From a virus, in the IMG/VR virus record IMGVR_UViG_3300031951_000121, positions 3,357-67,356 of that record: DNA of 64,000 bases. One strand, written 5' to 3'. This document shows positions 10,456 through 64,000 of the stretch, one piece after another. Within the stretch, counting starts at the first letter, position 1, and the number at the start of each line of letters is the position of its first letter. The position numbers were made by a program, and so were the translations under genes. The notes under the pieces are model-generated. The model saw only the letters and a list, made by a program, of their open reading frames with translations. It was not told the origin of the DNA and made no database searches.

Positions 10456-10530
10456 AGCCTACCCCTAGTAGTTCTGTCCTTATTGTATGCAAGATGGGGC
10501 GATTGATGGAATGCGATCGCGTACCCCTAA

Positions 10531-10608
10531 AAGTTCCGTACAATTACTGATGTACAGTCAAGATAAATGGGAGTATTATAAAAGAGTAAACAAAACGAGG
10601 TAACAACC
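10531..10608 (+). promoter_or_regulatory. conserved operator-promoter-RBS cassette, copy 1
   Basis: TCCGTA-N4-TACTGA, TGTACA-N17-TATTAT, AAAAGAGTAAACAA, CGAGG. Confidence 0.85.
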
Positions 10609-36263: not shown

Positions 36264-36338
36264 AGTTCCGTAAATACACGGATGTACATTTCTAGCAAAG
36301 AAGTTATTATAAAAGAGTAAACAAGCGAGGTAACAATC
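36264..36338 (+). promoter_or_regulatory. cassette promoter, copy 2
   Basis: TCCGTAAATACACGGA TGTACA-N16-TATTATAAAAGAGTAAACAAGCGAGG. Confidence 0.85.
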
Positions 36339-36582: not shown

Positions 36583-37431
36583 TTATAATCCGCAATGTCC
36601 CCCGCAGGTTTTGTCAAGCCCAAACCCATAAACCTCACCCAGTGGCAAGGATAGCTGGTCAATGACCGATGATAGTGGCTGTCCCGATGAATGAACAAAA
36701 CACGGATTATTAACCTGATTCCGGTTCGATAGATGCCTAATCTTATTATCTAACTCAACTGCCCTCAAAAACTCTTGAGGATCTTCCTGCTTCCGTCTCA
36801 TCCATTCACTAGGGCGTGTAAAGGGGCAAAAATAACACGCACTTTTGGGGATAGGATAACCAAGCTTGTAAGTGCCATATATTGAGCAATCCACCGCGTT
36901 CCAGTTAATAGCTAACAAAGGATATTGATTAACCAGCCACCTAACAGGACTGTTTGCCGTTCGGTTGCTCTCATCGGTACTAATGCCCAGCCAGAGATTA
37001 GCGGAGTCTGTGACCCTTTCTCCTTTTTTGTACCCAAGCAGTTCTCTGATTTTTTGATGGATCGGCTGCACTTTAAACTCATTAGTACATTGCCTTTTAA
37101 GCATTCCTACAGTCCCATCAATACCCTTCGTAAACCAAGGAACAGTGGTCACACCCCTTGCCTCGATAGCATCAATAGGTTTAAATTTTTCTCCTTGTTT
37201 TGCATTATTTACTATATGAAATTGATATCCTGCGTCAGTCAACTTTTTCCGCATTGTGTCAACGTGCTTGTACACCTTAGCAGGTTCAGCCCCAGTGTCG
37301 GCAAAAATAATATGGTTAGGAAGTGTTAGCCCAGCATCAGTGAATTTATCGGGCTGCTCTATTAAGAGCAGCCCGATAGCGGTTGACTGCCTTCCGCCCC
37401 CAAAGGAAAAAAAAGTCTTGTCGTCTAACAT
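36583..37431 (-). CDS. PAPS-reductase-like PP-loop protein
   Basis: SFGGGRQST, DTGAE, RQCT..K, KSACYFCPF, C-terminal CGGHC. Confidence 0.85.
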   Translation of the reverse strand: MLDDKTFFSFGGGRQSTAIGLLLIEQPDKFTDAGLTLPNHIIFADTGAEPAKVYKHVDTMRKKLTDAGYQFHIVNNAKQGEKFKPIDAIEARGVTTVPWFTKGIDGTVGMLKRQCTNEFKVQPIHQKIRELLGYKKGERVTDSANLWLGISTDESNRTANSPVRWLVNQYPLLAINWNAVDCSIYGTYKLGYPIPKSACYFCPFTRPSEWMRRKQEDPQEFLRAVELDNKIRHLSNRNQVNNPCFVHSSGQPLSSVIDQLSLPLGEVYGFGLDKTCGGHCGL

Positions 37432-37481
37432 GGTTGATTTACCTCCAATTCTGGCTTACGTACAATCCTGCATGATCTCGG

Positions 37482-37589
37482 TTATTTTGATGCGATCGCG
37501 GATAGGAGAACAATAATAAGCAAACCCCCAATAATAAGGATTGAAAATAATCCCAGCGCATTTAAGAATGAGATGGCAAATCTAATCAT
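37482..37589 (-). CDS. 35-aa membrane peptide
   Basis: MIRFAISFLNALGLFSILIIGGLLIIVLLSAIASK; ATGA overlap with the upstream gene. Confidence 0.6.
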   Translation of the reverse strand: MIRFAISFLNALGLFSILIIGGLLIIVLLSAIASK

Positions 37590-37879
37590 TTTTTCTTCTT
37601 GTGATGCCTGTTGAATACCGTGCCGACAAACAATAATAGGATTGTCCCGAGCATCCCTAACAAAACCGCTCCTGTTAGCATAGGGTACTTAGCCACATAG
37701 TAGCCGCCTAACAGACACCCTGAAAACTCAAGAGCTAGTTTTAAGTTTGTAACGATTAAGGCCCCTGCGAATACTCCAAGAGCAAGCGAGATAACGATCA
37801 TGAAAGGCAATTGCAGATGAAAAAGCCCTACACCAAGACAGACAAATAAAACAGGCAAAGGGTCTAGTTTCTTAATCAT
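37586..37879 (-). CDS. multi-TM membrane protein (holin candidate)
   Basis: 3-4 hydrophobic segments, basic tail HHKKKK; start ATG 37879 inferred from ATGA coupling. Confidence 0.65.
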   Translation of the reverse strand: MIKKLDPLPVLFVCLGVGLFHLQLPFMIVISLALGVFAGALIVTNLKLALEFSGCLLGGYYVAKYPMLTGAVLLGMLGTILLLFVGTVFNRHHKKKK

Positions 37880-38371
37880 TGATGCCGTCTCCCTTCCCAT
37901 ACATGATAAATATTGACACTCCCCAGCCTAAAGGCGTGGGGATTCTTGGGCTGAATCTTGCCTCTACTAGCAAAGCTAATTTTGGTCTTACAGTTTCATG
38001 CTAGTCCGACTACACCTTTTACAGCAAGCACTCTTATGGACTACTCCCCAAGCGTAAATTCGGGTATGCCCTACCCTATTTAATTTTTTTTCTCCCACCT
38101 ATGCCATATTTTGTGTTAGAGGGCAGTGAGGTATTGGGGCAATCCTTTTAGGATTGGTGACACTAGCCTTTTAGCAACGGTCAGTTCGCGTGCCACGACT
38201 ACACATCTGATTTTCCGCTTACCTCTCATCTTACTACAAAGCCGTGCTAAAAGCACGGGGTTTTTAACCCAATTTTTCGATAAATCCGAGGACGACAACA
38301 CTAGCGATCGCGCCAAAGACGATAGCCTGATAAGCGAACCATAAAACTACTTGCTTAATTAATAGAATCAT
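37876..38371 (-). pseudogene. 42-aa membrane peptide gene interrupted by the IS605-derived element
   Basis: Removing 37913-38279 gives MILLIKQVVLWFAYQAIVFGAIASVVVLGFIIYHVWEGRRHQ*. Confidence 0.75.
37913..38279 (-). mobile_element. non-autonomous IS200/IS605 element with a TnpB-type omegaRNA end
   Basis: Terminal hairpins CCGTGCTTTTAGCACGG and GAATCCCCACGCCTTTAGGCTGGGGAGTGTCAA; GGGCATACCCGAATTTACGCTTGGGGA resembles tnpB 3' ends; TTTAT 5' flank; no tnpA or tnpB. Confidence 0.85.
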
Positions 38372-38472
38372 CGATTAGTTTCACCACGTAAACGACAATA
38401 ACGACACATAAGAAAAGAAGAGATAGCCAATAGAACATAATAATAAGCCCCCGAAGGGGCGATCGCATTGCA

Positions 38473-38922
38473 CTAAATAGGAGCGGGTTCTTCCTCTACG
38501 GGAGGTTCTGGAGTCGGCTCGGGTTCAGGAACAACATCCGCAGGAGTTTCAGGGGCGGGAGCTGGCTCAGGTTCTGGAGTCGGCTCGGGTTCAGGAGCAT
38601 CAGGGATGAAACTTGCCACGGTAGCATTAAATTCCCCTACCTGAGACTTAATCCCCTCAATATCAGCAACTACACCCGCGATCGCGGTTTTGGCGGCATC
38701 AACACCTTCTAGTTGCTCTAACTTTTCCTGGACTTGTGTTAGTTCGGTGGCTACGGTCTGAGAGAGGGTAGCGATCTCGGTTTTCAGTCCCTCTACAGAG
38801 GTTAAAAGAGATTGGACGGATTCAGTTAGCATATCGATTTTATTGGCTAAGGTTTGAACAAGTAAGAGGATTGAATCGATAACTGGAGAATCCAGATCGA
38901 CAGGAATCTTTAGGTATCCCAT
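38473..38922 (-). CDS. coiled-coil protein with a Pro/Glu-rich tail
   Basis: Heptad pattern, PEPEPTPE repeats. Confidence 0.75.
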   Translation of the reverse strand: MGYLKIPVDLDSPVIDSILLLVQTLANKIDMLTESVQSLLTSVEGLKTEIATLSQTVATELTQVQEKLEQLEGVDAAKTAIAGVVADIEGIKSQVGEFNATVASFIPDAPEPEPTPEPEPAPAPETPADVVPEPEPTPEPPVEEEPAPI

Positions 38923-43347: not shown

Positions 43348-43357
43348 CGATCGCTTT

Positions 43358-43428
43358 AGTCGATTTTCCGACTATAACGGGGTTCTTTTAGACGATTTTC
43401 CGACTAAAGTACAGTCGATTTTCCGACT
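43358..43428. repeat. three copies of iteron AGTCGATTTTCCGACT
   Basis: At 43358, 43390 (1 mismatch) and 43413; same unit as 63704-64000. Confidence 0.92.
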
Positions 43429-43493
43429 AAAACGAGAGAGCGATCACGGTCATGGCGCACGGCTAGGCTGAACAGGAAAGACTAGGAGGAAAA

Positions 43494-53053: not shown

Positions 53054-53190
53054 CTATACTACCATAAATAATTTATGCCCTAGCCTAAATCGCTTAAGCT
53101 AGGGCATAACCGCGCCCTAGCCCGCGATCGCTCTCATCGTCTACCATGCGATCGCATTTCCTTAACTCTGAGCATTGCCAATAACCCTAA

Positions 53191-53273
53191 AAGTTCCGTA
53201 TATTTACTGATGTACAATATTGATAGGAAGATTATTATAGAAGAGTAAACAAAAACAACCGAGGACAAAAAAG
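53191..53273 (+). promoter_or_regulatory. cassette promoter, copy 3
   Basis: TCCGTATATTTACTGA TGTACA-N16-TATTAT..GAGTAAACAA..CGAGG. Confidence 0.85.
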
Positions 53274-54588: not shown

Positions 54589-54915
54589 TTAATGTTTATC
54601 AATTAAATCCCAGGCAAACTGGGGAACTTCCCATCCGTCTTTAACGTGCTGTCCAATGATTTTCTTAATCTGACTACGGGTAAACTCTTCATTCCCAGTG
54701 ACATTTACCTCTAAAATGTTATCGGAGGTAGCACTCTCAAGATCCTCATAAAGCGCGTCTGGAGTAGTAGAGTAAGGGACTAAAAACCCTACTATTTCTC
54801 CATCCTGTCCGATGAACTGCCAAGCTTGGCAGGTGTAGGGCTTGAACTCCTCATCCGGGAAAGTAGGATTAGACTGAAGAGTTACGGATATGATTTGAGC
54901 GTTGATAGTTTTCAT
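54589..54915 (-). CDS. small orphan protein under the cassette promoter
   Basis: Cassette upstream, CCCCTTCGGGGG-T-run terminator downstream. Confidence 0.8.
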   Translation of the reverse strand: MKTINAQIISVTLQSNPTFPDEEFKPYTCQAWQFIGQDGEIVGFLVPYSTTPDALYEDLESATSDNILEVNVTGNEEFTRSQIKKIIGQHVKDGWEVPQFAWDLIDKH

Positions 54916-54992
54916 TGCTTTTGCCTCGTTTGTTGTTTACTCTTTTATAATAGCGGTGTCTCTCTAGTCGTACATCCGTAAATATACTGAAT
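54916..54992 (-). promoter_or_regulatory. cassette promoter, copy 4
   Basis: TCAGTATATTTACGGA TGTACG-N16-TATTATAAAAGAGTAAACAA..CGAGG. Confidence 0.85.
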
Positions 54993-56352: not shown

Positions 56353-56484
56353 AAGCACCTCGATTAGTTTACTTCTTAATCCTAGCACTTCCTATCTGGA
56401 ATGTAAATCAGTATCTGAAACGAAAATAGCGCGATGCTTAGGAGCGATCGCGTTCCACAGGAAAACCATCCCTCTTATCCTCTA

Positions 56485-56569
56485 AACTTCAGTATATTTA
56501 CGGATGTACACTCCTGACAAGGGGAGTTATTATAAAAGAGTAAACAGAAAACACTCCGAGGCAAAAAAC
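56485..56569 (+). promoter_or_regulatory. cassette promoter, copy 5
   Basis: TCAGTATATTTACGGA TGTACA-N17-TATTATAAAAGAGTAAACA..CGAGG. Confidence 0.85.
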
Positions 56570-56779: not shown

Positions 56780-56802
56780 AAATCGCACTCCCTCTATCTT
56801 TA

Positions 56803-56883
56803 AAAGTTCCGTATATTCACGGATGTACAATCCTGATAGGGAGAGTTATTATAAAAGAGTAAACAACAACCGAGGACACGACA
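56803..56883 (+). promoter_or_regulatory. cassette promoter, copy 6
   Basis: TCCGTATATTCACGGA TGTACA-N17-TATTATAAAAGAGTAAACAACAACCGAGG. Confidence 0.85.
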
Positions 56884-57102
56884 ATGAAAAGCTTACAAGT
56901 AACCTTAACCGCAACCAATCCCAAAAACCTAGAAATGGCTCTCTGCACTGGCATCCGTTACGCATCTAGCGTGAAGGTAAGAGGGTGTCAGGCGATCGCT
57001 ACTTTCATTTTCGAGGGTGACGCGCAAGAAACCCTGACCGATTGTGTCAACCCCTCTGCTCTAGAAGAGTGGAGAACCGAATTTAGCTGGACACTAGCCT
57101 AA
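56884..57102 (+). CDS. small orphan protein under the cassette promoter
   Basis: Terminator GCCTCC..GGAGGC-TTTTT follows. Confidence 0.8.
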   Translation: MKSLQVTLTATNPKNLEMALCTGIRYASSVKVRGCQAIATFIFEGDAQETLTDCVNPSALEEWRTEFSWTLA

Positions 57103-60120: not shown

Positions 60121-60412
60121 TTCACCAACCCCGCCCTGAAAGAGACGGGGATTGACCAAACCAATTTGGTTGACGCAAGAGGTGAATAGCCCATTGAGAC
60201 ACAATTTGGCACAAACTTCCGAATGCTTCCCTAGTTCGGATTCCCTTTAAACCTAATTGGTTAGGTGCTGTCAGACAGGACATCTTAGTTGTGTTGGGCG
60301 AAGGGACTTAAACGAGTTTGCTGGTTCTCGCCTTATCGGGAATAAAAACCAGTTTCCCTTCGGGGAATGTCAAGCCGTCCTTGTAGGACGGGGTTTCAAA
60401 CCCAAATTTTCA
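60121..60412 (+). mobile_element. non-autonomous IS200/IS605 element carrying a HEARO/IscB-IsrB-type omegaRNA
   Basis: 5' hairpin CCCCGCCCTGAAAGAGACGGGG; ACTTCCGAATGCTTCCCTAGTTCGGA and GGGCGAAGGG HEARO-like motifs; 3' hairpin CCGTCCTTGTAGGACGG; ATGA 3' flank; no nuclease ORF. Confidence 0.85.
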
Positions 60413-60559: not shown

Positions 60560-61075
60560 TTTTTTCCGTGGCTTGACTTTTTTCTCTTCTTTCTTCTCGA
60601 AATTCTTGCAATCTACTACTCCGTACTTAGCTGCGATCGCGCTTAAGTCTTTGTTAGAGCTAGACCACCGCGCATGGGCTTCACTCCGATAGTACCAGCA
60701 TCCTCTTTTAGCGTGCCAACGGCATTTTAATTCTTTGAGGTTTTCTTTGTAGGGCTTGGTATCACCGATGACCCATACCCATACACCTATTAAGTAAATG
60801 TCAATGTTAGGCATTTGTAGGGAAAGAAGTTTAAGGATAACTTCCATTAACTCAGTTTCTACAGATTCATCATATTTATAGGTATGAGAAACCCCCTCAT
60901 CATCTACTGACACTTGACCTTGACATTTTTTTAGTGCGGCTTGATATTGGTTGTTTATCTCCTGCATGGTGGCAGTATCGCCGCCTAAGTCGGGATGGTT
61001 TTCCACCGCTAGTTTTTTGTAGTGAGCTTTGATTTCTTCTACTGTGTTTAAGCCTTGAAAAAAGTTAGCAGTCAT
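60551..61075 (-). CDS. J-domain (DnaJ-like) protein
   Basis: EEIKAHYKKLAVENHPDLGGD..MQEINNQY. Confidence 0.88.
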   Translation of the reverse strand: MTANFFQGLNTVEEIKAHYKKLAVENHPDLGGDTATMQEINNQYQAALKKCQGQVSVDDEGVSHTYKYDESVETELMEVILKLLSLQMPNIDIYLIGVWVWVIGDTKPYKENLKELKCRWHAKRGCWYYRSEAHARWSSSNKDLSAIAAKYGVVDCKNFEKKEEKKVKPRKKLA

Positions 61076-61157
61076 TTGATTTACCTCGTTTGTTGTTTAC
61101 TCTTTTATAATAACTTTCTCTATTAAGATTGTACCTCCGTAAATATACTGAACTTTT
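61076..61157 (-). promoter_or_regulatory. cassette promoter, copy 7
   Basis: TCAGTATATTTACGGA GGTACA-N17-TATTATAAAAGAGTAAACAA..CGAGG. Confidence 0.85.
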
Positions 61158-61233
61158 ATGGGTAAGGGAGAATGCGATCGCACAGGCATTAAAAAACCCC
61201 CTTGCGGGGGTAGATGATGGTTGAGGTAGAGCA

Positions 61234-61545
61234 TTAAAGCTCCCCTAGCCCCTCCCATATATCGGAGATTATTTCGTTATTGACTTCTAGTTCATTTCCG
61301 TCTAAATCGGTGACTATTATCCCATCCGATCTGCGATGATGCCATTTAATGGCATCGGTATTAGCATAAATAGCATGAGCGCAGTCTGTCTGATGATTAA
61401 CGTTGGCTATCCATTGCAGCCCTGCCTCTTCGCATTTTTTCGCGTTGTACGCAAGGCATGATTCATAGTCGTCTCCTGTTATATCCCCAAAATATTCAAT
61501 AGCAGTAGGTAGTATAACGATAATGGGCTGATTAGTAGCAGTCAT
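61234..61545 (-). CDS. small acidic orphan protein under the cassette promoter
   Basis: Terminator CCCCCGCAAGGGGG-TTTTTT follows. Confidence 0.8.
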   Translation of the reverse strand: MTATNQPIIVILPTAIEYFGDITGDDYESCLAYNAKKCEEAGLQWIANVNHQTDCAHAIYANTDAIKWHHRRSDGIIVTDLDGNELEVNNEIISDIWEGLGEL

Positions 61546-61629
61546 TTGATTTGCCTCGGTTGTTTTTGTTTACTCTTTTATAATATCCTCGCCTATCCAC
61601 ACTGTACATCCGTAAATATACTGAACTTT
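61546..61629 (-). promoter_or_regulatory. cassette promoter, copy 8
   Basis: TCAGTATATTTACGGA TGTACA-N17-TATTATAAAAGAGTAAACAA..CGAGG. Confidence 0.85.
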
Positions 61630-61988
61630 TATTTTTGCCAGAGTGCTTTGGAGCAAAATAGACTACGGGTTATGCGATCACACAAGCAGTGAGCGGGGTC
61701 ATGGGTGATGCAACACACTGAAGCGGTGTGATAGCGATCACATTTTTGTAGGCAAAAATACCTCAAAATAGCGTAAAATATAGGTAATGTACTTTATTTA
61801 CTCTCCATGATCACCTCTACAGAAACGCATCAGATATGGAATAAGTGCGCGATAGGAAAACATAACCCTAAAGCCGTATTATTGGGCAGTGCAGTGATTT
61901 GCGACTTCGATTCAGAAGAAAAAGCCGCAAAATTTACTAAGCTACTAAACAGTTTCCTGACTGCCACCTACACGGCTATAGACAATAG

Positions 61989-62983: not shown

Positions 62984-64000
62984 CTACCCTAGCCATTTTC
63001 TCTTGCAGCGAAGGGGTTGTTTAACGATGACTTCCTGTTCCACAGGGCGTAAACTCTTTCGATACTCTTCCAACCATCGGCGATCGCTTCCCTTCGGCTG
63101 ACTGTCCCTCAACCGATTAGCCGCCGCCTCTGCGATCGCTAACGGGGAAACCTGCCGCCCAGTGCGTCTGTTCTCGTCAACTACCTGCCGCTCCATCCAA
63201 GCCACGAATGACTCCTCTTCCTCAATCCCCTCAAATAAACTGTCAGGGCGATTCGCGGCGTATTTCTCAGCGATTCTTTTTTGGCGGGCTAGGGTAGTCT
63301 CCCGATCAGGGGAGAAGAACGGATCTTTTTTTGTATCGTTAGCAGCCTCTAACAGGTCATTTTCGGCGGGTTGATTCTCCCCTAGGTGGTTTGTATCCTG
63401 CGACGGCTCAGGCGCGTTTTGAGCAGCGCGGAGTCTCTCCAATTCTAATTGAGTTCTTTTCTCAACAGCCGCCCGAAGACTTAAACCACAATCCAGCTTG
63501 GCTAATGGTTGACCCCGTAACTCCGCTTCAATCTCTAGCTTGGCTATTTGCCTCCGAGCGATCGCTTTGGGGCTGTCAGGGTCTAAGACTTCGTTGCTTT
63601 GATCATCTTCCGTAATTGAGCAATAATCCGCCTCGCGCGCGCACGTGTTCTGTGCCTCTTCTTTTAATTCTTCTTCTTTATATATAGATGTCGAATCCTC
63701 TTTAGTCGATTTTCCGACTATAAACCCATCCTCTTTAGTCGATTTTCCGACTGAACTACAGTCGATTTTTCGACTAAAGCCATTTTGCTCCTCATCCTCT
63801 TTAGTCGATTTTCCGACTATAACGCTCTCATTTATAGTCGATTTTCCGACTAAACCAGTATCTAGGGGAGTTGCTTTAGTCGATTTTCCGACTATAACGC
63901 TCTCATTTATAGTCGATTTTCCGACTAAACCAGTATCTAGGGGAGTTGCTTTAGTCGATTTTCCGACTATAACGCTCTCATTTATAGTCGATTTTCCGAC
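62984..64000 (-). CDS. replication initiator 2, 5'-truncated by the window end
   Basis: Frame open from 64000 to 62984 (VGKST repeats); NRPDSLFEGIEEE..KWLG is paralogous to DNPRSLFESLTEE..SWLG of initiator 1. Confidence 0.75.
   Translation of the reverse strand, partial: VGKSTINESVIVGKSTKATPLDTGLVGKSTINESVIVGKSTKATPLDTGLVGKSTINESVIVGKSTKEDEEQNGFSRKIDCSSVGKSTKEDGFIVGKSTKEDSTSIYKEEELKEEAQNTCAREADYCSITEDDQSNEVLDPDSPKAIARRQIAKLEIEAELRGQPLAKLDCGLSLRAAVEKRTQLELERLRAAQNAPEPSQDTNHLGENQPAENDLLEAANDTKKDPFFSPDRETTLARQKRIAEKYAANRPDSLFEGIEEEESFVAWMERQVVDENRRTGRQVSPLAIAEAAANRLRDSQPKGSDRRWLEEYRKSLRPVEQEVIVKQPLRCKRKWLG
63704..64000. repeat. iteron array, at least 9 copies of AGTCGATTTTCCGACT (likely origin)
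   Basis: Starts at 63704, 63737, 63760, 63803, 63836, 63878, 63911, 63953, 63986; AT-rich tract at about 63660-63690. Confidence 0.9.

What the first reader, a model, noticed from the sequence alone, without database searches (positions are those of the whole stretch)
37876..38371. Second orphan omegaRNA element (TnpB-type) splitting a small membrane-peptide gene
Seen: a 367-bp minus-strand element between TTTAT and TATTT, ending ..GGGGAGTGTCAA and keeping the tnpB 3'-end/omegaRNA-like segment, without tnpA or tnpB. Exact removal restores a 42-aa TM peptide whose TGA overlaps the next ATG. With the insert present the peptide ends ..GFIEKLG*, so the TM helix survives but the coupling is lost. 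The other end hairpin (CCGT..ACGGGGTTT..ACCCAA.TTTTC) is shared with the element at 60121, suggesting a related TnpA. Inference: guide TATTTATCATGTATGGGAAG with TAM TTTAT. Two OMEGA RNA classes and no effector in the window is notable. Seamless TnpA excision could also act as a genetic switch.
Basis: partly seen in the sequence, partly recalled or inferred. Interest (0 to 1): 0.72.

Follow-up and report, generated by a model that had tools for sequence, protein, structure and literature searches.

The report
Guide-RNA mini-transposon inside a cyanophage gene
A 367-base gene-less jumping element from the bloom-forming cyanobacterium Microcystis, still carrying the folded guide-RNA part of a TnpB nuclease gene, sits inside a tiny membrane-peptide gene of a complete cyanophage genome; this is a clear but fairly ordinary case of a known kind of element.

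Summary
Window 37913-38279 (top strand = minus) is a 367-bp non-autonomous IS200/IS605-family element (PATE/MITE). Its ends are fixed by 22 other insertion sites that share the 5' flank TTAT and by 15 unrelated 3' flanks.

Copies of about 370 bp, 86-89% identical, occur in Microcystis. Some match was found in 16 of 17 genomes of that genus.

Its 3' 183 nt form a conserved fold. Of 48 pairs, 19 show compensatory changes, and G-U pairs fix the strand. A covariance model built only from orphan copies also hits the 3' ends of intact tnpB genes. In three Microcystis genomes, 34 of 49 weaker hits start 1-16 nt after a TnpB zinc-ribbon domain. This is the position of a TnpB omegaRNA.

The complete 67-kb phage has no tnpB or tnpA, whereas the host genus has many.

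In-silico removal gives a 42-aa ORF whose TGA overlaps the next ATG.

No empty allele was found, and expression is only hinted at. OmegaRNA-bearing PATEs and host IS200/IS605 jumps into a Microcystis phage are already in print. Verdict: new member of a known kind, moderate-to-low interest.

The parts
37913..38279 (-). Whole 367-bp non-autonomous IS200/IS605-type element (PATE/MITE), with no tnpA or tnpB
   Evidence: homologous copies in Microcystis share both boundaries and lie in unrelated flanks
38237..38279 (-). Left end: CGAAAAATTGGG start, then hairpins GGGTTAAAAACCC (38270-38258) and CCGTGC-TTTTA-GCACGG (38258-38242)
   Evidence: The same left end is found in TnpB-only element L019 and in tnpA+tnpB element L136
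38280..38284 (-). Target / transposon-adjacent motif TTTAT, just 5' of the left end (conserved core TTAT)
   Evidence: 22 distinct sites, positions -4 to -1 = T22 T20 A22 T20
37913..38095 (-). TnpB-type omegaRNA-like scaffold: hairpin 1, long-range stem CUUGGG/CCCAAG enclosing two hairpin arms, terminal hairpin, then AGUGUCAA
   Evidence: Model R1 scores 215 bits. Covariation. Homologous hits at tnpB 3' ends
37913..37945 (-). Right end: terminal hairpin CCCCACGCC-TTTA-GGCTGGGG followed by AGTGTCAA
   Evidence: 92-95% match to the sequence just 3' of annotated TnpB genes in Stanieria and Trichormus plasmids. Compensatory changes
37893..37912 (-). Predicted guide: the 20 nt of phage DNA that follow the right end (inferred only)
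   Evidence: Right-end flanks are unrelated in 15 distinct copies. The position follows family logic (PMC10055086, passages read). There was no significant match in 17 Microcystis genomes
38264..38371 (-). Small hydrophobic ORF, 35 aa as it stands, whose last five codons and stop lie in the element's left end
   Evidence: Removing the element in silico gives 42 aa with TGA overlapping the next ATG. No homologues were found
37586..37900 (-). Downstream membrane-protein ORF (104 aa from the ATG at 37900, or 97 aa from the ATG at 37879)
   Evidence: Only a weak sub-threshold Pfam hit. No relatives in the phage collection
60121..60412 (+). Second orphan element: a HEARO/IscB-type omegaRNA on the plus strand. 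Its transposon top strand is also minus, and its ends are related to those of the first element
   Evidence: Rfam HEARO 47.5 bits, E 1.3e-8, below the gathering score of 83. Ends aligned. Host copies are followed by a 365-aa ORF that I read by eye as IscB/IsrB-like

Best explanation
Window 37913-38279 is a palindrome-associated (MITE-like) deletion derivative of a cyanobacterial IS200/IS605-family, TnpB-carrying insertion sequence. It is native to Microcystis and some other cyanobacteria. It transposed into single-stranded phage DNA 3' of a TTTAT site, presumably through a host Y1 TnpA acting in trans. It landed 11 codons before the end of a small hydrophobic ORF. The element keeps the left-end hairpins, the right end and a structurally intact TnpB-type omegaRNA scaffold, but no protein gene. 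Shown here: homology, boundaries, target motif, RNA fold and strand, orphan status in a complete phage genome, presence of matching tnpA and tnpB elements in the host genus, and presence of the insertion in natural phage populations. Inferred: the scaffold is transcribed with the co-oriented phage genes and is joined to the next ~16-20 nt of phage DNA as guide. It is then loaded in trans onto a host TnpB and directs cutting of the element-free site (TTTAT plus guide match). That would bias retention or spread of the element, as shown for other IS605 elements. For the phage the insertion is most likely a tolerated passenger that changes the peptide's tail and removes a stop/start overlap.
For: - Copies and boundaries.
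- The right end matches the region just 3' of annotated TnpB genes.
- Full-length relatives share the same ends: L019 and L117, both with OrfB_IS605 + TNB domains, and L136 with tnpA + tnpB and a TTTAT flank.
- Fold: 48 pairs, 19 with compensatory changes, 97.8% of cells paired against 30-43% in the slid controls, 0 of 500 shuffles as high.
- Model R1 hits intact tnpB 3' ends: L002 60 bits, L130 52, L153 70, L151 72, L117 40.
- 34 of 49 weaker R1 hits start 1-16 nt after a PF07282 match, and 0 of 11 strong hits do.
- No tnpB or tnpA in the whole phage. Each of three host genomes has 39-127 TnpB-domain matches and each of four has 7-22 TnpA matches.
- Six equal-scoring copies at different TTAT sites in one genome point to recent mobility.
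- DNA contigs from runs of different studies cross both junctions.
- RNA-library contigs that differ from the element at 0-1 positions cover 37913-38204, while the flanking phage genes have no cover.
Against: - No empty allele was found in any collection or run.
- No intact tnpB carrying the long (184-nt) form of the scaffold was found. TnpB-linked homologues are 143-159 nt and score only 40-72 bits, so a cognate effector is not identified.
- The RNA contigs stop exactly at the right-end boundary and do not include the guide. That fits transcripts from several host copies as well as from the phage.
- No sigma-70-like promoter was found on the minus strand within 37500-38700.
- BLASTP of the 36-aa internal ORF against the L117 TnpB found nothing. 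The 'coding remnant' therefore rests on the nucleotide/structure alignment.
- The best reference copies are only 86-89% identical, so the donor is not in hand.
Confidence: 0.8

Rival explanations
1. An inert passenger. The element is what is described above, but in the phage its RNA does nothing: it is not made, not bound by any TnpB, or both. The conserved fold reflects selection in host genomes or the needs of TnpA on single-stranded DNA ends, not any role during infection.
For: No cognate TnpB with the long scaffold form was found. There is no promoter-like site on the minus strand. RNA contigs lack the guide. The guide has no target in 17 host genomes.
Against: Internal hairpins far from the ends covary, and one is replaced by a different hairpin in L103. 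TnpA recognition of the ends does not explain that. The element is co-oriented with the phage operon, so read-through transcription is possible. RNA-library contigs of this exact sequence exist without cover of the flanks.
Confidence: 0.45
2. It is an IscB/HEARO-type omegaRNA on the plus strand, like the element at 60121. The plus-strand start TTGACACTCCCC..GGGG resembles the start of the HEARO consensus.
For: The two elements have similar plus-strand starts, and HEARO matches the 60121 element.
Against: There was no HEARO match at E up to 10 in 37700-38500. Pairs that are mostly G-U on the minus strand would be A-C on the plus strand. Model hits sit at the 3' ends of tnpB genes on the tnpB strand. 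[quoted passage not shown]
Confidence: 0.02
3. An assembly artefact: a host repeat wrongly joined into a metagenome-assembled phage contig.
For: The record is a metagenome-derived virus contig. Public contigs break inside the element.
Against: In runs X14/X15 and X6 (different studies) one contig runs 37300-38053 or 37300-37993. Another runs 38031-38900. Each has 0-5 differences, and together they cross both junctions. X14 and X15 have identical contig sizes and may be one data set.
Confidence: 0.03
4. A reversible genetic switch. Seamless TnpA excision and re-insertion toggles the peptide's C-terminus and its stop/start coupling to the next gene, to the phage's benefit.
For: Excision in silico restores a 42-aa ORF with an ATGA overlap. 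IS200/IS605 excision is seamless (PMC10055086, passages read).
Against: No empty allele was seen in the four runs laid or in any collection. Given a reading frame, an overlap of this kind arises by chance about one time in four (my estimate). The peptide has no detectable relatives.
Confidence: 0.05

Closest known systems
Palindrome-associated transposable elements (PATEs) of IS200/IS605 that carry omegaRNAs (Meers et al. 2023 preprint, PMC10055086; passages read)
   Same: It has no protein genes and keeps left-end and right-end hairpins. It inserts 3' of an AT-rich motif without a target duplication. It retains an omegaRNA scaffold that would need a TnpB encoded elsewhere. The flank motif TTTAT equals the TAM reported there for GstTnpB2.
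   Different: It comes from a cyanobacterial family, not Geobacillus, and here it sits in a complete phage genome. Its scaffold (184 nt, two internal hairpin arms) is longer than any TnpB-linked homologue I found.
IS605/IS1341-type TnpB elements of Microcystis (the ISMae10-16 class in Kaneko et al. 2007, PMC2779907; table read)
   Same: The left-end sequence, the TTAT/TTTAT target and the right-end terminus ..GTGTCAA or ..GATGTCAA are the same as in L019, L117 and L136. The RNA fold is homologous at tnpB 3' ends.
   Different: tnpB and tnpA are deleted. I could not tell which named ISMae is the parent, nor whether this is one of MaeMITEa-h, because the sequence supplements are closed.
Host IsrB-encoding IS200/IS605 insertion into Microcystis cyanophage Mic1 (PMC11237433; passages read)
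   Same: An element of the host's IS200/IS605 superfamily moved into the genome of a phage of the same host genus and interrupted a phage gene.
   Different: That element carried its nuclease gene and arose in the laboratory with a fitness cost. This one is gene-less and is found in natural populations: 13 studies hold at least part of the stretch, and the junctions were checked in contigs of three runs.
Rfam HEARO (RF02033), the IscB omegaRNA
   Same: [quoted passage not shown] The neighbouring element at 60121 matches it.
   Different: The element under review does not match HEARO and is of the TnpB type on the other strand.

Membership tests
IS200/IS605-family non-autonomous element (PATE/MITE) | Subterminal hairpins at both ends, not terminal inverted repeats | tested here: met
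   Left-end hairpins at 38270-38242 and right-end hairpin at 37945-37921. Both are conserved and covary in the copies
IS200/IS605-family non-autonomous element (PATE/MITE) | Insertion 3' of a short conserved motif, with no target-site duplication | tested here: met
   22 distinct sites have TTAT (T22 T20 A22 T20) 5' of the left end. 15 distinct right-end flanks are unrelated
IS200/IS605-family non-autonomous element (PATE/MITE) | No transposase or nuclease gene inside | tested here: met
   The longest internal ORFs are 36 and 66 aa. The whole phage genome has no PF07282, PF01385 or PF01797 match
IS200/IS605-family non-autonomous element (PATE/MITE) | An autonomous partner with the same ends (Y1 TnpA) in the host | tested here: met
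   L136 has a TTTAT flank and the same left end, then tnpA (reverse), tnpB (forward) and a right end ..GGATGTCAA. Whether that TnpA moves this element was not tested
IS200/IS605-family non-autonomous element (PATE/MITE) | Empty and filled sites in related genomes | tested here: inconclusive
   No relative of this phage region was found. Contigs of three DNA runs showed no joint. Mobility is inferred from six equal-scoring copies at different sites in G052
TnpB-type omegaRNA | The scaffold is homologous to the 3' end of tnpB plus the right end, on the tnpB strand | tested here: met
   R1 hits at intact tnpB 3' ends. 34 of 49 weaker hits in three genomes start 1-16 nt after a PF07282 match
TnpB-type omegaRNA | Conserved secondary structure supported by covariation | tested here: met
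   19 of 48 pairs have compensatory changes, 0 of 500 shuffles were as high, and slid controls gave 30-43% paired against 97.8%
TnpB-type omegaRNA | A variable guide directly 3' of the right-end boundary | tested here: met
   15 distinct, unrelated flanks follow GTGTCAA. That they are used as guides is inferred
TnpB-type omegaRNA | Expressed as a stable RNA that includes the guide | tested here: inconclusive
   RNA-library contigs differing at 0-1 positions cover 37913-38204 but stop at the boundary. The flanks have no cover. Contigs cannot show strand or ends
TnpB-type omegaRNA | Bound by a TnpB and directs TAM-dependent DNA cleavage | not testable with these tools
   This needs RIP-seq or an interference assay
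HEARO / IscB omegaRNA | A match to RF02033 on the strand that starts at the right end | tested here: not met
   No match at E up to 10 for 37700-38500. The 60121 element does match

The most novel reading that the evidence does not exclude
The phage's two effector-less guide-RNA elements (TnpB-type at 37913, IscB/IsrB-type at 60121) are not mere passengers. Transcribed during infection, they would borrow the host's abundant TnpB and IscB/IsrB proteins to cut co-infecting phage genomes that lack the insertions (TTTAT + guide match). They would then act as an RNA-only gene drive or exclusion weapon between phage variants, a guide-RNA analogue of homing-endonuclease marker exclusion in T-even phages.
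Probability: 0.1. Interest if true: 0.75.

Novelty: new member of a known kind. Interest (0 to 1): 0.35.

Why it matters
This is a clean natural example of a guide-RNA-bearing, protein-less IS200/IS605 derivative that has moved from a bloom-forming cyanobacterium into a complete genome of what is probably one of its phages. Beside it lies a second element of the other (IscB/IsrB) guide class with related ends. That shows host-to-phage traffic of such elements in the field. It also gives a defined target (TTTAT plus 20 nt) with which to ask whether orphan omegaRNAs work in trans with host nucleases. The underlying concepts are already published: omegaRNA-bearing PATEs, TnpB acting in trans, and IS200/IS605 insertion into a Microcystis phage. 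The finding therefore extends known biology and does not change it.

Tried and rejected
- Rfam gave nothing for this element, at gathering scores over the whole window or at E up to 10 locally.
- Single-sequence folding of either strand was no better than shuffles (z -0.57 and -0.82). Only the comparative analysis showed structure.
- The search for related phages or an empty site failed in several ways:
  - blastn of 3 kb against 50,697 phage records found no match.
  - tblastn of two flanking proteins found no match.
  - Peptide-pattern scans with the PAPS-reductase-like neighbour found nothing in IMG/VR or in JGI metagenomes.
  - Exact flank patterns gave no hit in IMG/VR.
  - The same pattern gave one chance 24-mer hit in an unrelated metagenome contig.
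- The 30 TnpB loci first fetched from Microcystis (mostly a 396-aa family) share no end with the element. They are not the parent family.
- BLASTP of the internal 36-aa ORF against a TnpB found nothing.
- The guide region has only chance-level matches in 17 Microcystis genomes.
- Contigs of the four runs laid showed no joint across the element. Contigs cannot show rare variants, so this does not count against excision.
- Not used: protein folding, complex prediction and the large protein-homology searches. The question turned on DNA and RNA, not on a protein.

Full report
**What the window is.** It is a virus record of 67,356 bases with direct terminal repeats, estimated 100% complete, and the window covers bases 3357-67356. 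It is rich in GCGATCGC repeats, which I recall as the HIP1 motif typical of cyanobacteria. The element's closest relatives lie in Microcystis genomes. I therefore read it as a cyanophage, probably of Microcystis.

**Observation.**
- On the minus strand the stretch reads ...GGATTTAT | CGAAAAATTGGGTTAAAAACCCCGTGCTTTTAGCACGG ... CCCCACGCCTTTAGGCTGGGGAGTGTCAA | TATTTATCATG....
- The ORF 38371-38264 now ends ..GFIEKLG* inside the element.
- Removing 37913-38279 in a script gives a 42-aa ORF whose TGA overlaps the ATG of the MIKKLDPL... start of the next gene.
- A 7-nt direct repeat (GATAAAT on the plus strand) lies at both junctions. An alternative 374-bp deletion would give a 41-aa ORF. The family's boundaries, below, favour the 367-bp version.

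**It is an insertion of a known repeat family.**
- A 22-nt motif of the left part occurs in three contigs of one Microcystis genome.
- That genome holds a near-full copy and many partial ones.
- Across 17 genomes of the genus, 16 have a match at E <= 1e-10. These include ~370-bp full-length copies at 86-88% identity and copies covering positions 40-367 at 88-89%.
- Aligned copies share both ends and lie in unrelated flanks.
- Over all fetched loci, 22 distinct insertion sites start at the same base (CGAAAA.. in 21 of them) and are preceded by T(22) T(20) A(22) T(20). The fifth base back is T in 10 of 22.
- 15 distinct copies end at GTGTCAA and are followed by unrelated sequence.
- This is the signature of IS200/IS605 transposition: insertion 3' of a short motif without a target duplication.

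**Link to TnpB.**
- The last 37 nt match, at 92-95%, the sequence directly 3' of annotated 'RNA-guided endonuclease TnpB' genes in Stanieria and Trichormus plasmids, on the tnpB strand.
- Full-length elements with the same left end and right-end terminus were found:
  - L019 in Microcystis: AATCAT|CGAAAAATTGGG..., a 422-aa open frame...GGGAGTGTCAA.
  - L117: a 429-aa open frame whose stop codon TAG lies in the loop of the right-end hairpin.
- Both proteins carry OrfB_IS605 and the Cas12f1-like TNB domain. L019's TNB match (24.5 bits) falls just below the curated cut-off of 26.3.
- An autonomous IS605 in Microcystis (L136) has TTTAT|CGAAAATTTGGGTTAAAACCCCGTCG..., then tnpA on the reverse strand, tnpB forward, and a right end ...GGATGTCAA.

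**The 3' half is a structured RNA of the omegaRNA kind.**
- Twenty non-identical copies of the last ~183 nt, from Microcystis and other cyanobacterial genomes, align at 86% mean column identity.
- RNAalifold predicts 48 pairs, 19 of them with compensatory changes.
- For that structure 97.8% of cells pair. None of 500 shuffles reaches any of the five measures. Sliding the partners by 1-3 columns drops pairing to 30-43% and the covariation score from 0.281 to 0.04-0.08.
- Four pairs are G-U in most sequences and two more in many, which fixes the strand as the window's minus strand.
- In one copy (L103) an inner hairpin is replaced by a different hairpin.
- The tool warns that related sequences can beat shuffles without structure. 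The slid controls and the number of double changes answer that concern.

**What the covariance model finds.**
- Model R1 was built from these orphan copies only. In the window it finds only this element, at 215 bits.
- It also hits the 3' ends of intact tnpB genes that were not in the model:
  - L002, 60 bits.
  - L130, 52 bits: a 407-aa TnpB, ORF 409-1632, model match 1501-1647.
  - L117, 40 bits.
  - L153, 70 bits: a 402-aa open frame.
  - L151, 72 bits: a 414-aa open frame.
- In three Microcystis genomes it gives 60 hits. The 11 hits of at least 100 bits are all orphan. Of the 49 weaker ones, 34 start 1-16 nt after a same-strand PF07282 match. Only 150 of the 257 PF07282 matches were listed, so 34 is a lower bound.
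- The model alignment places the element's first hairpin on the codons for a ..L-N-x-V-G-H-T.. motif near the TnpB C-terminus. L153 reads LNTVGHTEIKAWGQ there, and the phage element reads LNRVGHTRIYAWG in the same register.
- BLASTP of the 36-aa ORF against one TnpB found nothing. The remnant claim therefore rests on the nucleotide/structure alignment.

**Orphan status and host effectors.**
- The whole phage genome has no match at E <= 1 to PF07282, PF01385 or PF01797.
- Three Microcystis genomes hold 39, 91 and 127 TnpB-domain matches. Four hold 7-22 Y1-transposase matches.
- No intact tnpB carries the long, 184-nt form of the scaffold. TnpB-linked homologues are 143-159 nt, with one long internal hairpin where the orphan form has two arms.
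- The long form is found only in gene-less elements. These occur in Microcystis and in at least G052, G073 and G312, with shorter or weaker matches in G246, G240, G300, G333, G195 and G213.
- In a sample of 401 cyanobacterial genomes, 76 had some match at E <= 1e-6, mostly the conserved right end alone.
- Six equal-scoring copies at different TTAT sites in G052 point to recent mobility.

**Natural populations and expression.**
- 20 listed runs from 13 studies hold the stretch or part of it, 15 of them at least half of its sampled words.
- Four runs were laid. In DNA runs X14/X15 (identical contig sizes, possibly one data set) and X6 (another study), one contig runs from the phage flank into the element (37300-38053 or 37300-37993, 0 differences). 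Another runs from the element into the other flank (38031-38900, 0-5 differences).
- No joint across the element was seen. Contigs drop rare variants, so excision is not excluded.
- In RNA library X16, contigs differing from the element at 0-1 positions cover 37913-38204 and nothing else of the 1.6 kb. One contig stops exactly at 37913.
- That speaks against phage-DNA carry-over and for an RNA of this sequence. Contigs show neither strand nor true ends. A stop at the repeat boundary is also what several copies with different flanks would give. I count this as a weak hint only.

**The interrupted ORF.**
- The small ORF lies in a row of short, hydrophobic, same-strand ORFs with overlapping starts and stops.
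- I found no relatives of it or of its neighbours. That it is a real gene is plausible but unproven.
- The restored stop/start overlap has, by my estimate, roughly a one-in-four chance of arising by accident once a frame is given.

**The second element.**
- Window 60121-60313 (plus strand) matches Rfam HEARO at 47.5 bits, E 1.3e-8. That is below the gathering score of 83.
- Its ends resemble those of the first element in the same window orientation.
[quoted passage not shown] Both elements have the minus strand as transposon top strand, one with a TnpB-type RNA on it and one with an IscB-type RNA on the opposite strand.
- Relatives occur in 14 of 17 Microcystis genomes. In L167 the RNA is followed by a 365-aa ORF whose N-terminus looks IscB/IsrB-like. 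That is my reading by eye and I did not scan it.

**Comparison with what is known.**
- Meers et al. (preprint PMC10055086; abstract and passages read) describe gene-less PATEs in Geobacillus that 'often encode omegaRNAs' needing TnpB in trans. They show that TnpA and TnpB share the TAM (TTTAT for GstTnpB2). They also show that TnpB cuts the donor joint to retain the element.
- The Mic1 study (PMC11237433; passages read) reports a host IsrB-encoding IS200/IS605 element jumping into a Microcystis phage gene.
- Kaneko et al. (PMC2779907; table read) list seven IS605 families and eight MITE families in M. aeruginosa. Their sequences are in supplements I could not open, so I cannot say whether this family already has a name.
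- Full-text searches gave no report of an omegaRNA-only element in a phage. The terms were: TnpB + cyanobacteria + MITE; TnpB + palindrome-associated transposable + guide RNA; cyanophage + Microcystis + IS605 + transposase; orphan + omega RNA + TnpB + phage. The library does not cover subscription journals.

**Mechanism and verdict.**
- Shown: the identity and anatomy of the element, its orphan state, the host's stock of matching transposases and nucleases, and its presence in wild phage populations.
- Inferred: transposition into phage single-stranded DNA by a host TnpA. Also inferred are read-through transcription with the co-oriented phage genes, use of the 20 nt after 37913 as guide with TAM TTTAT, and trans-loading on a host TnpB to cut element-free genomes.
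- The guide has no significant match in 17 host genomes, so it is not aimed at the host.
- The finding is real and well read by the first stage. It is a new member of a known kind, and I score interest at 0.35.
- The boldest reading still open is that the phage's two protein-less guide RNAs use host nucleases against phage variants that lack them. I give that about one chance in ten.

Noticed in passing
window 60121-60412: A second gene-less IS200/IS605 derivative carries a HEARO/IscB-type RNA on the plus strand (47.5 bits, below Rfam's cut-off). Relatives occur in 14 of 17 Microcystis genomes. In one host copy (L167) the RNA is followed by a 365-aa ORF that looks IscB/IsrB-like by eye.
   Followed up: partly
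window 10517-10595, 36264-36324, 53182-53264, 54909-54992, 56469-56552, 56795-56890, 61072-61171, 61542-61632: A ~70-80-nt repeat occurs in both orientations at eight or more places. It contains ..CCGTA.ATT.AC.GATGTACA.. and ..TATTATAAAAGAGTAAACAA. It looks like a phage promoter or regulatory cassette.
   Followed up: no
window 63700-64000 and 43354-43431: Tandem 75-nt repeats with the core TAGTCGATTTTCCGACT lie at the right edge of the window, and a related pair lies at 43.4 kb. They may be iterons or packaging/origin repeats near the terminal repeat.
   Followed up: no
window 38447-38460 (minus strand): A GC-rich hairpin GCCCCTTCGGGGGC followed by a T-rich run sits right after the 149-aa coiled-coil gene and inside the first small hydrophobic ORF. 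It is a possible terminator, so the small ORFs downstream may form a separate unit or be poorly expressed.
   Followed up: no
L144 (G002:C1:192314-195682), minus strand 1400-1010: Another gene-less element has the same left end after TTTAT but a different interior and a right end ..GGATGTCAA. It is inserted just downstream of an IS200-like tnpA. This shows several PATE subfamilies sharing one type of end.
   Followed up: partly
G052 loci L149, L156, L157, L160-L163: One cyanobacterial genome holds six copies of the long-form orphan scaffold with identical model scores at different TTAT sites. Two of them carry an extra ~30-nt insert in the middle part. The family appears to have been active recently.
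   Followed up: partly
L146 (metagenome contig), 895-918: An exact 24-nt match to the phage flank lies in an otherwise unrelated contig. I treated it as chance.
   Followed up: yes
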